64,000 nt of DNA from Octopus vulgaris (lineage: Eukaryota), in the NCBI GenBank assembly GCA_951406725.2, contig OX597816.1, forward strand, positions 21,328,001 to 21,392,000, in the 5' to 3' direction. This document shows, piece after piece, positions 2,483-42,569 of this stretch. Every line of letters starts with the position of its first letter. Position 1 is the stretch's first letter. A program made the position numbers and the translations under genes. The notes beneath the pieces are model-generated. The model worked only from the letters and a program-made list of their open reading frames with translations, ran no database searches and was not told the origin of the DNA.

Positions 2483-2828
2483 TTTATTTATTTATTTTTT
2501 ATTTATTTTGACATGTATCACTGACGAAGAGAGGGCTCTTAGAGGCTAACTCTGAAATAGGTCCGATATGGTAATAATGGAATTTTTTTTAGAAATTTCT
2601 GTCGACTTTTTTTCGAGTAGCGTGCATATTGTGAAAAAATTATATGGTTAATTGACAATATGTCCAATTTTTCGGCATATTTGGCATTAGAAATTTTTTT
2701 CCTTTGCCCTCATTTATGAATTGTTTATAAATTTAAGCATTAAAGGTATTTTTTAATATGCTGGCCATTGATAAAATTTTTTTCGAGAAAATATTTTTTT
2801 TCGAAAGAAATTTTATCCTCACATTTGA
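2483..2828 (+). mobile_element. Second hammerhead-bearing element between (TA)n tracts
   Basis: Hammerhead near the 5' end; TGCTGGCCATT plus hairpin 2770-2817 at the 3' end; (TA)n on both sides. Confidence 0.65.
2514..2570 (+). ncRNA. Minimal hammerhead ribozyme, slightly decayed
   Basis: TGTATC(a)-CTGACGA-AGAG...CTCT-GAAAT-ag-GTC-(c)GATATG; one A.C mismatch at the base of stem I. Confidence 0.65.
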
Positions 2829-3214
2829 TATATATATATATATATATATATATATATATATATATATATATATATATATATATATATTATATATATATAT
2901 ATATAATATATATATACATATATATATATATATATATATATATATATATATATATATATATATATACATATATATATATACATATATATTCTTGAAATGA
3001 GGAGTAGATAGACGGCTGACAACTGATGAAGGGTTGTTCTTTATGTTACTTTTCTTGTTTTCCATTTTTTTCTCTCATAGTTTGTATATTGAACTCATTT
3101 GCTTTCGTATTTCATGATGTTTACTGTTCAGTGACATCTTGTACCCATATATGCACGTGTTTATATATATCTATATGCACATATATATATATTATTTATA
3201 TATCTGTATATTGT

Positions 3215-3414
3215 GGTCATCGTGCCGGTGGCACGTAAAAGCACCCACTACACTCTCGGAGTGGTTGGCGTTAGGAAGGGCATCCAGCTGTAGAAATTCT
3301 GCCAGATCAGATTGGAGTCTGGTGCAGCCATCTGGTTCGCCAGACCTTAGTTAAATCGCCCAACCCATGCTAGCATGGAAAGTGGACGTTAAACAATGAC
3401 CTTGATGATGATGT
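3215..3414 (+). mobile_element. 3' UTR fragment of RTE-clade LINE ending in (GAT)n
   Basis: Matches the 3' end of the coding RTE copy at 50740-51846 (gagtggttggcgttaggaagggcatccagctgtagaaa...cgttaaac(gat)n). Confidence 0.8.
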
Positions 3415-4827
3415 TGTATTCTATCATCGGACTGTTATATAACGTCCACTCTGGTAAGTAAGAAATGACTACTTATGACCGACTACTAACTTCTTGATGT
3501 GATAGTATTTGTAACAACTAGCACATACCACTTGTCATGTCGGAGGGATGTTCCATTATAATTATTATCCCCATAACAAACACAAACACACACAGATATG
3601 TATATATCTGTATGTACCAGCTTAACTTCACAATATTGTCCAATATCAATAAATACAGTAAAGATTTTTTTAATGTATATGTTGTTGTTGTTGTTGTCCT
3701 GTTGGTGGTGGTGTTGGTGGTGGTGATGTCAGCGACATGTTTCGAGGTGCTCATAAGATCGATTGTTTGTTTACATATTCAAATGTTAATTGTTGAAATG
3801 TTGTTATAAAGCATTCGCTAAGCCAACCAGAATCCAATCCAGAATAAAAGACGAGCTGGTCCTTTTGTTTCTCAGTCATTTGGGACTGAAATTTTGCTGA
3901 AATATTTTGAATTTATTCTAAACATATTCTTTAATTCCTAAACATTGAATTGGCTTCCACAACCTGCAAGCTAAAAAGATAGGAGGTGACTCACAAAGGT
4001 GGGAGCAGTAAGGGTCAGGGTCACTTTATGTCATCATGCATATGGAAGGAGAGGGATGAGGGAGCCATTTTCAAGTGTTGAAGGTTCAGTCTATAAAATT
4101 GCGCCACTGCTATAGAGATAAATGACAGGATCAGTAATAACAACAACACCAACAACAGCAACATGGAAAAAACAAAATCTGTGATAGCAGCTTCAGGGGG
4201 CATAAAGATGGTATTCTTGTCATGAAAGAGGGGAGGCGTTTTTATCATTGAGAGGTCAAAGTTCAAAGTTCAAAAAAATTGCACCATTTCATTAGCAGCT
4301 ATTGACAGTAATTGTAAAAACAACAACATTGATAAAAACAGCAAAAATAGTAGTAGCAGCAGCAGCAGCAGTAGCAGCAATAATGACAAAAGCAGGGACA
4401 ATAGCAGCAGAGAAAGCAATAGCCTTTTCAGCAGCCACAGCAGCAGAACAGCAGCATTAACAGGGACAATAGCAGCAGCAGCAGCTGTGACTGCAGCAAC
4501 GATAACAAGGCTTCTTCACTACAATAGTCTCCACAAAACAGTCTCACCCAAGAAGATGACCAGCTGGAATTAGAAGATGCTGCTCACTTTAGGAAAATTT
4601 CGGGGAGACAGGAAAAGCATATTCCTAGTTATGGTACACTTGCTTGCACCTTCTAGAAAGATCGTTCTATATTGTTCTTTGAGTTTAACAAAAGGTTTGG
4701 TGGAAGATTTTAATTCAGAACTTTTGAAAACAAGACACTTGTACTCAGAGCCAGAACCAGTTTCAGACAGGTTGGCAACGAAATGGTTAAAGGATATGAA
4801 GGCACTGGAGTGTCTGTGTGGTAAGTA

Positions 4828-5240
4828 GGCGCAGGAGTGGCTATGTGGTAAGTAGCTTGTTTACCAACCACATGGTTCTGGGTTCAGTCCCACTGCATGG
4901 CACCTTGGGCAAGTGGCTTCTACTATAGCCTCGCGCCGACTAAAGCCTTCTGAGTGGATTTGGTAGACGGAAACTAAAAGAAGCCCGTCGTATATATTTA
5001 TATATATATATATATGTATGTGTGTTTATATGTTTGTGTGTATGTATTTGTTCCCCCAATATCGTTTGAGAACCGATGCTGGTGTGTTTATGTCCTCGTA
5101 ACTTAGCAGCTCGGCAAAAGAAACCGATAGAATAAGTACTAGTGTTACAAAGAATAAGTCCTGGGTTCGAATTTCTTGACTAAAGGCAATGCTCCAGCAT
5201 GGCTGCAGTCAAATAACTGAAATAAGTAAAAGAGTAAAGA
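4828..5240 (+). mobile_element. SINE family A, full copy
   Basis: tRNA-like head (A box tggctatgtggtaag, B box ggttcagtccc), CORE-like ccttgggcaagt, internal (TA)/(TG) tract, conserved tail; more than 12 related copies in the window. Confidence 0.9.
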
Positions 5241-5544
5241 GTTGCTTCTCCATCTCTAACAAGCTGTAAAAGCTCACCAAAACTTAACTTCATCTTCTGA
5301 CATAGCAATACATTTCAAAACTTGCTTAATATCTTCATTAATGACTTGACATTCATTTTTGCATTATATTCACAGAAATGCTCTTATTAAATACAAATAC
5401 ACATTGACAAGTTTCAGTTCCTTGAAGCCAAGTTGATGTACGAAAAATCCAAAACTACATGTGCAAACACACACATACACACACACACAGACAGTCACAT
5501 ATATCCATATATACTTATATACATTCTTTAATCTTTTATCATTG

Positions 5545-40626: not shown

Positions 40627-40682
40627 TTGGTACCGGTTTTGAAATTTAGCACCAAATAGGTGCTCGATTTCTCATCAACCAA
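40627..40682 (-). ncRNA. Hammerhead with mutated core (inverted copy)
   Basis: Homolog of 40861-40925 but with TTGATGA and AAAAC, so two catalytic-core substitutions. Confidence 0.55.
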
Positions 40683-40860
40683 AGACTACCAGGTAAATTA
40701 CTGCTAACATTCTTCCCCATCATGCCGGCAAAAGTTTGTTTGAAGTGACCAAGCACTATAGGAACAAACGAAATGTGTAAAATTATTTATAAATAAATAT
40801 AGGGATGGTATTATTAAAATACCATCACGAGTGGCAAGCAAGTTATCAGCCATAGAGGCA

Positions 40861-40925
40861 CACTTTGGCTGATGAGAAATCGGGCACCTATTTTGGTGCT
40901 AAATTTTGAAACCGGTACCAATGTG
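40861..40925 (+). ncRNA. Type I minimal hammerhead ribozyme
   Basis: CACtTTGG-CTGATGA-GAAAT..GGCACC/GGTGCT..ATTTT-GAAAC-cg-GTA-CCAAtGTG. Confidence 0.8.
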
Positions 40926-41097
40926 ACCAGCATTTACTCGTTCTGATACAGTGGAGGTAAGACATTATTATTGTTCACTGATATTTTTTCCTATCATGTC
41001 TGTAATAGATTTGTGACTATTCGGTGGTATAGAAGTATCTTTGACTTCTATTTTTAGTGATATAGGTACAACTATAGTACCCTTGAGTATATATGTA

Positions 41098-42387
41098 CGA
41101 GGGGCGTTCAATAAGTAATGCCCCTGACCCACTTCCCATAGCAGTAGAGCAACGAAACTTGGCACAGTTATTAGTCTTTTTCTACATAGGAACCACCCAG
41201 AGTTATGCATTTCTCCCATCGTTTGATGCGGCTCTGGAGACCGTTTTTGTAGAAGAACCCAGCTTGGTCCTCCAACCACGACGTGACTTCAGAAATCAAG
41301 GCTGCATCATCTGGGAAACGCTTTCCTTTCAAAAACAACTTCATGATTGGGAAGAGGTGAAAATGCAGAGGGTGCAAGGTCAGGAAAGTAGGGGGAGGGG
41401 GAGGAGTTCATAGCCATACGCCTGTGCTTCTGATCTGGCGACAAGCGAGTTGTGGACCGGAGCGTTGTCCTGCAGGAGGAGGATGCCTTTGCTGATCTTG
41501 CCCCGCCTCTTGATTTTGATAACTTCTCTAAATTTCCTCAAAAGTGAAGCATAATAGGCTCCTGCAATTGTGGTACCCTTTGCAAGGAAATCTGTAATCA
41601 CTACTCCGTCCTGGTCCCAGAAGACTGTGAGCATGACCTTGCCAGCGGAGGGCTGCACCCATGCCTTCTTTGGAGGAGGGGAGTCACGGTGCTTCCACTG
41701 CATTGACTGGGCTTTGGTCTCTGGATCATCGTGATGGACTCAGGTTTCATCCTGTGTAATCAGTGTTTTGAAAAATTTTGACTCATCTTCTTGGCACATC
41801 TCCAAATTCACCCTCGAGCACTCGACGCGTTCTTGCTTCTGGAAAGGCGTGAGCAACCTGGGAATCCATCTGGCAGACACCTTTTGCATATGCAAATGGT
41901 CATGAATGATAGTTTCCACAGACCCGGTACTAATCTTGACTTCATGGGCTATTTGGCGAATAATTATGCGTCGATCTTCCAAAATGGCAGCCTCAACTTG
42001 ACGGACAGATGCCTCATCAATGGCAGAAGGGGTGACCAGATCTGGGAGCTGTTTCCACAGAGTTCCGACCATGTTTGAATTCACGATGCCAGCGTTTTAC
42101 AAGGTCATATGATGGGGCATCATCACCATAAGTTACTTTCATTTCATCAAAAGTCTCCCGTGGTGTGCGTCCTTTCCAATACAAAAACCAGATCACTGCT
42201 CGACACTCAACAGGGTCCATTTCACACTTCACTCAGTTCAAACACCTGTAAATCAGAAACCACAATTAATTCAGAGCTGTAATTTGCCACTTACTCTATA
42301 GAGATATAAATAATTGCACATGCAAAATTTCAGCTAGATCAAACAATTGCAAGTGGGTCAGAGGCATTACTTATTGAACGTCCCTCG
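41098..42387 (-). mobile_element. Full-length mariner transposon (1290 bp)
   Basis: About 37-bp TIRs CGAGGGGCGTTCAATAAGTAATGCCCCTGACCCACTT (2 mismatches between ends); TA target duplication at 41096-41097 and 42388-42389. Confidence 0.95.
41171..42232 (-). pseudogene. Mariner DD34D transposase, frameshifted
   Basis: Four ORF pieces: HTH region (RAVIWFLYWKG..WHREFKHGR), WIPRLL, ITQDET, SAGKVMLTVFWD, LLQDNAPVH, (Y)FPDLAPS, FHLFP, RWEKCI..GSYVEK. Confidence 0.93.
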
Positions 42388-42569
42388 TACATATCTAATA
42401 TTGTATGTAAATATTTTATTGATTTGCTTGTACGGCTGATAATTCACTTGCCATTCATGATGGTATTTTAATAATACCATCATTCTATATATGTATATAT
42501 ATATATATATATATATATATATATATATATATATATATATATATATATATTATATATATATATATATTT

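What the first reader, a model, noticed from the sequence alone, without database searches (positions are those of the whole stretch)
2759..42485. Covarying 3'-terminal hairpin shared by otherwise unrelated elements
Seen, in element sense: TGCT-N(1-2)-G(C/T)CA(C/T)T, then a hairpin, then C(C)T..ATTT, then AT-rich or (TA)n sequence. It recurs at 2759-2828(+), 18415-18467(-), 39255-39301(-), 39515-39562(-), 40800-40840(-) and, more decayed, 42445-42485(+). The hairpin sequence differs while pairing is kept: GATAAAATTT/AAATTTTATC, GATAAGATCT/AGATCTTATC, GGTAATAA/TTATTACC, GGT..AATTGAT/ATCAATT..ACC, GATGGTATT/AATACCATC. Inference: a conserved RNA signal for RT recognition or priming at the TA target, which would define a trans-mobilised family by structure rather than sequence.
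Basis: partly seen in the sequence, partly recalled or inferred. Interest (0 to 1): 0.72.

Follow-up and report, generated by a model that had tools for sequence, protein, structure and literature searches.

The report
Structured tail of hammerhead retroelements
Several short jumping-gene families that carry a self-cutting RNA end in the same folded RNA domain of about 175 bases, kept by matching changes on both sides of its stems, which probably tells a Penelope-type copying enzyme where to grip the RNA and start copying it.

Summary
Motif plus a stem of at least 7 bp occurs 4 times against 0.03 expected, and own-arm pairing beats all 119 other arm assignments. The sites are 3' ends of short, non-coding Penelope-like (PLE) units. 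Three of five families have a same-strand type I hammerhead about 250-270 nt upstream, and two show the PLE pattern of a head-to-head inverted copy plus an optional tail. In the four families with upstream sequence, TGCT-N-GCCAY is the 3' strand of two long-range stems that close a multi-helix domain of about 175 nt, with compensatory and G-U changes on the hammerhead strand. The 'decayed' site 6 is a compensatory change. The families are therefore related, the distance to (TA)n is not fixed, and other hammerhead families in the window have other tails. Most likely role (inferred): a cis signal for PLE protein binding and internal start of reverse transcription. PLE tails and a stem-loop start site are published; my searches found no description of this domain. 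No genome or autonomous element was available, and only 4-5 families were compared.

The parts
2513..2570 (+). Site 1 family: type I hammerhead (core at 2521, cleavage at about 2563-2568); the element begins just upstream, beside (TA)n
   Evidence: hammerhead scan; not found by Rfam at gathering score
2644..2768 (+). Site 1 multi-helix domain: P0 5' 2644-2648, bulged hairpin P3 2650-2669, P1 5' 2673-2681, hairpin P2 2683-2708, AT-rich linker, P1 3' 2755-2763, P0 3' 2764-2768
   Evidence: P0 pair probabilities 0.78-0.98; P1 only about 0.3; P3 about 0.2
2770..2828 (+). Site 1 terminal hairpin 2770-2817 (22 bp, two G-U) and CT-CACATTT tail before (TA)n
18458..18577 (-). Site 2 multi-helix domain: P0 5' 18573-18577, P3 18549-18570, P1 5' 18537-18544, P2 about 18518-18537, motif 18457-18467; no hammerhead found upstream in this copy
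   Evidence: the MFE fold is the full domain; P0 0.99 for four pairs, P1 0.97-1.0
18415..18455 (-). Site 2 terminal hairpin 18423-18455 and tail
39255..39346 (-). Site 3: 5'-truncated piece of about 90 nt from a high-copy family; motif 39290-39301, hairpin 39263-39289; upstream helices are absent from this copy
   Evidence: (high summed depth, loose end at 39346, length variants at 39269)
39515..39667 (-). Site 4: inverted 5'-truncated copy with tail; P1 5' 39641-39649, P2 39614-39639, motif 39551-39562, hairpin 39521-39550
39685..40120 (+). Site 4 family, tail-less copy: hammerhead 39882-39944, P0 5' 40041-40045, P3 40047-40065, P1 5' 40068-40076, P2 40078-40102; ends in (TA)n at about 40113-40120
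   Evidence: (40044 C>G and 40049 A>G in about 98% of laid depth; loose end before 39685)
40416..40790 (-). Site 5/6 family, inverted unit body without tail; degenerate hammerhead at about 40630-40684
   Evidence: (88% identity to 40863-41094)
40790..40860 (-). Site 5: tail of the preceding tandem unit; motif 40830-40840, hairpin 40804-40826; fold-back junction with 8-bp microhomology at 40845-40873
   Evidence: (diverged contigs bridge 40629-40817)
40863..41097 (+). Site 5/6 family plus copy: hammerhead 40869-40917, P0 5' 41023-41028, P3 41029-41051, P1 5' 41056-41060, P2 41065-41081
41098..42387 (-). Decayed mariner transposon inserted at a TA inside the domain's linker (secondary insertion)
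   Evidence: PF01359, E 3.4e-23; TA on both sides; joint 40452-42387, the form without the mariner
42390..42485 (+). Site 6: rest of the same copy; motif 42445-42455 (CACT variant), hairpin 42457-42483, then (TA)n

Best explanation
The sites are 3' ends of short non-coding PLE derivatives: pLTR- or retrozyme-like units, about 450 and 520 nt in the two families where a unit junction is indicated. The RNA reads hammerhead, 80-105 nt, then a multi-helix domain (P0 enclosing bulged hairpin P3 and long-range stem P1; P1 enclosing hairpin P2 and an AT-rich linker), then a terminal hairpin and CCT-ATTT. Inferred mechanism: an autonomous PLE protein binds this domain, nicks AT-rich or (TA)n DNA and primes reverse transcription at an internal RNA site, either just after the terminal hairpin (copy with tail) or in the linker after P2, 65-85 nt earlier (copy without tail). 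Early termination gives 5' truncation, and fold-back priming gives the head-to-head inverted partner. Shown: anatomy, pairing pattern, hammerhead linkage, two kinds of end. Inferred: transcription, folding, protein binding, start sites, identity of the partner.
For: Hammerheads with short or palindromic helix III lie on the motif strand in 3 of 5 families at near-constant distance. Inverted partners end short of the motif-bearing end at sites 4 and 5/6, as described for PLE tails (PMC8557442; PMC3846280). In Anolis PLE the tail lies between two RT start sites and initiation is in a stem-loop downstream of the hammerhead (PMC11167929). Motif-anchored test of P0+P3+P1: 14, 13, 12 and 10 pairs, reached by 1, 1, 6 and 49 of 2,000 upstream shuffles; none of 128 testable control loci exceeds 12 and 100 score zero. 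P1 own-family pairing is 35 of 40 against a mean of 30, best of 24 assignments; slid registers give 11-13 of 32-36. Compensatory pairs: P1 C-G to U-A, A-U/G-U to G-C, U-A to A-U, A-U to G-C; P0 G-C to A-U. P0+P1 cells: 45 WC, 9 G-U, 0 A-C, 6 other of 60 (3 cells count one G twice). The sense strand folds 8-10 kcal/mol better than antisense at sites 1 and 2. The P0 mismatch in the window's site 4 copy (40044 C) reads G in 98-99% of laid depth in 4 of 4 runs, which restores the pair. Depth rises toward the 3' end of the site 5 unit in 4 of 4 runs (X1: 1,678, 8,716, 33,905), as 5' truncation predicts.
Against: Only 4-5 families, helices aligned by hand after seeing the sequences. A structure-only descriptor is not specific: 45 hits in the window against 27-44 in 10 shuffles. 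Site 1's P1 and P3 have low predicted probability (about 0.3 and 0.2), site 6's P1 is only 5 bp (49 of 2,000; 23% of random 71-mers pair as well), and four of five P0 pairs never vary. Sites 4 and 5/6 were scored across two copies or across the mariner. Sites 2 and 3 have no hammerhead in the window. No PLE ORF was confirmed. No RNA reads were laid, so expression, strand and cleavage are untested. Contig depth is not a copy number.
Confidence: 0.6

Rival explanations
1. Same PLE-derived ends, but the signal works as DNA or on the antisense strand: an endonuclease recognition site in the pLTR tail, or a fold on cDNA or antisense RNA.
For: PMC11167929 reports that the D. virilis tail was required for endonuclease recognition of plasmid DNA. 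PMC3846280 argues for self-priming on an antisense template to explain head-to-head inversions, which are seen here. Most pairs are WC and antisense folds are also better than shuffles (z -4.3 and -3.1).
Against: Non-WC pairs are G-U, not A-C, on the hammerhead strand (9 against 0 in P0+P1; two more in the site 1 hairpin), though several share one origin. Sense folds are stronger. Stems spanning about 120 nt suit single-stranded RNA better than duplex DNA.
Confidence: 0.15
2. The domain serves a retrozyme-type circular RNA cycle (stability, ligation, hammerhead dimer folding) or transcription control (GYCAYT as an initiator-like element), not RT recognition.
For: Two families appear to form head-to-tail units with one hammerhead each, like non-LTR retrozymes (PMC7229834). 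An Inr-like TCACT was noted in a rotifer pLTR (PMC3846280).
Against: Insertion ends coincide with the domain, not with the hammerhead cut site. The CCAY pairs with an upstream RTGG and covaries once. No conserved TATA box is seen at a fixed spacing (sequence).
Confidence: 0.12
3. Shared ancestry plus DNA-level palindrome repair (template switching) keeps the hairpins matched without selection on structure.
For: The families share sequence boxes, the window is rich in fold-backs, site 1's hairpin has grown by T/A runs, and loose structure descriptors hit at chance level.
Against: Local repair explains hairpins but hardly P1 and P0 pairs 80-120 nt apart that change together across families, nor the G-U bias.
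Confidence: 0.09
4. Helentron/HINE (DINE-1-like) ends: an 11-12 bp subterminal inverted repeat followed by a 3' palindrome.
For: HINEs have 12-15 bp subTIRs 38-60 bp from the 3' end and a 3' palindrome, sometimes shared between dissimilar families (PMC4067079). Sites 5 and 6 face outward like two ends.
Against: No reverse complement of the motif at a 5' end: within 6 kb upstream, none at 4 of 6 sites and one two-mismatch hit inside the mariner at each of the other two. Flanks are (TA)n, hammerheads are present, and site 5 is joined to the next unit in diverged contigs.
Confidence: 0.04

Closest known systems
Endonuclease-positive Penelope-like element insertion units: pLTR, inverted 5'-truncated copy, optional tail (PMC8557442; PMC3846280)
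   Same: Type I hammerhead near the 3' end, head-to-head inverted truncated copy with a palindromic junction, tail at one end only, AT-rich or (TA)n flanks, 5' truncation.
   Different: No ORF here; tails are 65-85 nt rather than 30-40 nt; the passages read describe no conserved multi-helix 3' domain.
Anolis Poseidon PAc RNA template (PMC11167929)
   Same: RT starts at two internal sites downstream of the hammerhead, the tail lies between them, initiation is in a stem-loop and cleavage favours AT-rich DNA.
   Different: The PAc signal is an AC-rich stem-loop inside the ORF start, one element, no cross-family covariation reported in the parts read; here it is U-rich, non-coding and ends about 250-270 nt from the hammerhead. 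Its fold figure (Fig. S2C) could not be seen.
Metazoan non-LTR retrozymes (PMC7229834; bioRxiv 10.64898/2026.07.22.740005)
   Same: Short non-coding low-GC units with one type I hammerhead, head-to-tail junctions, proposed PLE origin and trans-mobilisation.
   Different: Here units are mostly solo, truncated or inverted, with no two complete consecutive hammerhead units; circular RNA untested; no 3' domain in the passages read.
Helentron-derived HINE/DINE-1 elements (PMC4067079; PMC11417382)
   Same: Short conserved box followed by a 3' hairpin near the end.
   Different: No 5' subTIR partner, no TT target, hammerheads and PLE-type inversions present.

Membership tests
Penelope-like elements (EN+), non-autonomous or truncated ends | Type I hammerhead in the pLTR, on the element strand | tested here: met
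   3 of 5 families; absent from the copies at sites 2 and 3
Penelope-like elements (EN+), non-autonomous or truncated ends | Inverted 5'-truncated copy adjacent at the 5' end, head-to-head | tested here: met
   sites 4 and 5/6; fold-back junction at 40845-40873
Penelope-like elements (EN+), non-autonomous or truncated ends | Optional tail at one end only | tested here: met
   39515-39596 and about 42421-42485 are missing from the partner copies; longer than the published 30-40 bp, and the site 5/6 boundary is uncertain by about 15 nt
Penelope-like elements (EN+), non-autonomous or truncated ends | Insertion bias for AT-rich DNA or microsatellites | tested here: met
   (TA)4 within 6-19 nt at 4 of 6 sites, AT-rich at the other two; weak in so TA-rich a window
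Penelope-like elements (EN+), autonomous | RT plus GIY-YIG ORF linked to these ends | not testable with these tools
   no genome held; no such ORF in the window
Non-LTR retrozymes | Head-to-tail tandem units, at least two with complete hammerheads | tested here: inconclusive
   tail-to-body junctions indicated at 40629-40817 and before 39685, but no complete dimer in the window
Non-LTR retrozymes | Self-cleavage and circular RNA | not testable with these tools
   all 24 runs listed were contigs; no RNA run was laid
Helentron/HINE | 5' subTIR complementary to the 3' subTIR | tested here: not met
   full-length 5' ends are missing for sites 2 and 3
Helentron/HINE | Insertion between T and T | tested here: inconclusive
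   flanks are (TA)n or AT-rich; no empty sites available
Known Rfam families (including other ribozymes) | Match at gathering score | tested here: not met
   0 in the window; only sub-threshold hairpin-type matches in three regions

The most novel reading that the evidence does not exclude
The domain is a conserved RT-loading and start-positioning RNA module of one PLE lineage. An enclosing pair of helices holds a single-stranded start region and sets two internal start sites, which would be a functional parallel to the telomerase RNA core in the sister group of telomerase (parallel recalled, not tested). It would be a portable signal that lets unrelated RNAs be copied into AT-rich DNA.
Probability: 0.2. 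Interest if true: 0.8.

Novelty: new variant of a known kind. Interest (0 to 1): 0.52.

Why it matters
How PLE reverse transcriptases, the closest relatives of telomerase, recognise their RNA and choose internal start sites is open; the one in vitro system mapped the requirement only to a 172-nt stretch (PMC11167929). Divergent natural families that keep the same helices give specific base pairs to break and restore. The same model could pull out the autonomous partner and reclassify many apparent MITEs in such genomes as PLE fold-backs.

Tried and rejected
No whole genome is held, so genome-wide alignment and enrichment could not be done. None of the 132 viral and metagenome loci has a (TA)6 run among the 25 best-stem rows printed, 4 of 132 have a stem of at least 7 bp counting G-U and 0 of 132 reach 8 WC pairs; they served as controls. 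Of the 3 prokaryote hits, 2 were read and show no terminal hairpin by eye; L135 was not read. MAFFT did not align the stems in register, so no structured covariance model was built. A sequence-only model from sites 1, 2 and 5 recovered sites 2 and 5 but held-out sites only at chance level (site 4 E 0.8, site 6 E 7, site 3 E 7.6). The structure-only descriptor was not specific. An antisense Pol III A-box reading was dropped because no B-box was seen (by eye; consensus recalled). A twister-like reading was dropped: no Rfam match. A GIY-YIG-like look of the fold-back interior at 48.6-49.6 kb was not confirmed: 0 Pfam hits in six frames and one marginal hit, E 9.7e-4, to a 2,869-aa protein. Earlier-findings look-ups by place, sequence and first word set returned nothing.
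Full report
Setting. The window is AT-rich, microsatellite-dense animal DNA. Its repeats look octopus-like to me (recalled, not shown); the run list names mollusc and invertebrate metagenomes among small-share holders. No genome is held, so evidence comes from the window, one contig lay over 39245-42490 in four runs with four organism labels, and scans of public collections.

Observation. All six sites exist as described. The strict motif occurs 7 times against 0.94 in shuffles, and 4 times with a stem of at least 7 bp against 0.03. 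With arms anchored by sequence rules, own-family arms give 45 of 50 WC pairs against a mean of 32.2, best of 120 assignments. Of 132 pattern-matched loci from unrelated contigs, none has an 8-bp WC stem there. Length variants at 39269 remove 1, 2 or 4 of six A residues and leave the site 3 stem intact (and sequence). The pattern was chosen from these sites, so the statistics are favourable to it.

What the elements are. A hammerhead scan lists 12 candidates in the window. Three lie on the motif strand upstream of sites 1, 4 (through its inverted partner) and 6, about 250, 252 and 272 nt from cut site to hairpin end (the last after subtracting a mariner at 41098-42387, PF01359). A joint between 40452 and 42387 in three of four runs shows the form without the mariner. 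Sites 4 and 5/6 belong to head-to-head inverted pairs in which one copy stops 65-85 nt short of the other. This is the PLE arrangement of inverted truncated copy plus optional tail (PMC8557442; PMC3846280). Contigs 12-15% diverged bridge 40629-40817 in three runs, and five contigs in X8 carry a hairpin-end-like sequence just before 39685, which suggests head-to-tail units of about 450 and 520 nt. Site 5 is then an internal junction. Summed depth at sites 3 and 4 is about 1e5 in X1 and X3 against 25-70 for single contigs listed, so these are abundant families, though depth is not a copy number. Sites 2 and 3 lack a hammerhead here and are read as 5'-truncated; for site 3 a loose end at 39346 in X7 supports that.

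The larger structure. Pairwise alignment showed a block shared by the site 4 and site 5 families (z 5.3, 0 of 100 shuffles). A pattern built from it hits exactly five places, all in the site 2, 4 and 5/6 elements, and none in 30 shuffles. It lies about 90-110 nt before the motif. P0 pairs RTGGT with GCCAY. Inside it come a hairpin P3 (bulged in three of four families), three or four U, then P1, which pairs with the TGCT region and encloses hairpin P2 and an AT-rich linker. Site 2 folds into this as its minimum-energy structure with P0 and P1 probabilities near 1; site 1 forms P0 firmly but P1 and P3 only at about 0.3 and 0.2. Holding the motif fixed and shuffling the upstream 76 nt, the observed 14, 13, 12 and 10 pairs are reached in 1, 1, 6 and 49 of 2,000 shuffles; 128 of 132 control loci could be tested and the best scores 12. 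P1 shows two-sided changes at five positions and P0 at one. Site 6's CACT pairs with its own AGTG, so it is not decay. The one P0 mismatch, 40044, reads G in 98-99% of laid depth in all four runs, and 40049 A>G turns an A-U of P3 into G-U (looked up after the pairing was proposed, in a table already in view). Non-WC pairs are G-U rather than A-C on the hammerhead strand (9 against 0 of 60 cells, three double-counted, four of one origin), and sense folds beat antisense by 8-10 kcal/mol. Against this: a structure-only descriptor gives 45 hits against 27-44 in shuffles, site 6's P1 is weak, four of five P0 pairs are invariant, the alignment is by hand, and n is four families.

Mechanism. Shown: the anatomy above. 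From the literature: Anolis PLE protein nicks AT-rich DNA and starts reverse transcription at two internal RNA sites, in a stem-loop downstream of the hammerhead, with the tail between the sites (PMC11167929). Inferred: the same holds here, with one start after the terminal hairpin and one in the linker after P2, and the domain is what the protein binds (0.6). Rivals are a DNA-level or antisense signal (0.15), a circular-RNA or promoter role (0.12), neutral palindrome repair (0.09) and Helentron ends (0.04; no 5' subTIR).

Scope. The motif is not general to hammerhead elements. Families at 2209, 17376, 18200 and 50435, and a tail-like piece at 47.8 kb, show two other shared tail classes. Each class may be matched to its own autonomous partner (inference).

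Novelty. Rfam has no match. Ten literature searches turned up no description of this domain; the library lacks most subscription papers and Repbase. What I saw: bioRxiv 10.64898/2026.07.22.740005 parts 1-2 of 5; PMC11167929 parts 1-2 of 4, its supplement 2 as labels only, supplements 1 and 3 unread; PMC4209133 part 1 of 4 and passages; passages of PMC8557442, PMC11417382, PMC4067079, PMC3846280, PMC7229834, PMC13282606 (no occurrence of 'hairpin' or 'ribozyme' in its main text) and PMC11662667. Unseen supplements, above all the PAc fold figure and octopus repeat libraries, may bear on novelty.

Verdict. A real, covarying 3' RNA domain of non-autonomous PLE-like hammerhead units, larger than reported. 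The element class and tail are known; the conserved domain appears undescribed and makes PLE template recognition testable. New variant of a known kind, interest 0.52.

Noticed in passing
window 1559-2443 and 17205-17727: Two fold-back hammerhead families with long helix II share a second tail class (about TGGTGC..ACCATATTCA); the first has arms 99% identical, so it is probably young.
   Followed up: partly
window 17865-18411, 47732-47838 (-), 48239-50655: Third tail class shared by two fold-back hammerhead families and one tail-like piece of about 100 nt; ends in a short GG/CC hairpin then CT-ATAT.
   Followed up: partly
window 48600-49640: Interior of a 2.4-kb fold-back is strongly G-poor on the + strand, partly duplicated, and by eye resembles a decayed GIY-YIG domain antisense to the hammerhead; not confirmed by searches.
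   Followed up: partly
window 39347-39508: 162-nt palindrome between sites 3 and 4 whose arms end in a short hairpin followed by CCTTTAT; possibly two head-to-head truncated ends of a related family.
   Followed up: no
window 39597-40120: Looks like a TA-flanked MITE with 70-bp terminal inverted repeats but is a PLE-type fold-back with an internal hammerhead; such elements may be misannotated as MITEs.
   Followed up: yes
window 40744-40755 (-): Second motif-like match 45 nt into the next unit, without terminal hairpin or upstream pairing.
   Followed up: partly
window 16126-16274 (+) and 44488-44640 (-): A-rich repeat family with a hammerhead-like core; the first copy follows a LINE-like 3' remnant and an (AAC)n tract.
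   Followed up: no
window 40160-40411: Very high-depth SINE-like insertion that abuts the site 5 inverted copy (class recalled).
   Followed up: no
window 45484-46001 and 51459-51670: Related 66-67-nt tandem repeat arrays rich in short hairpins.
   Followed up: no
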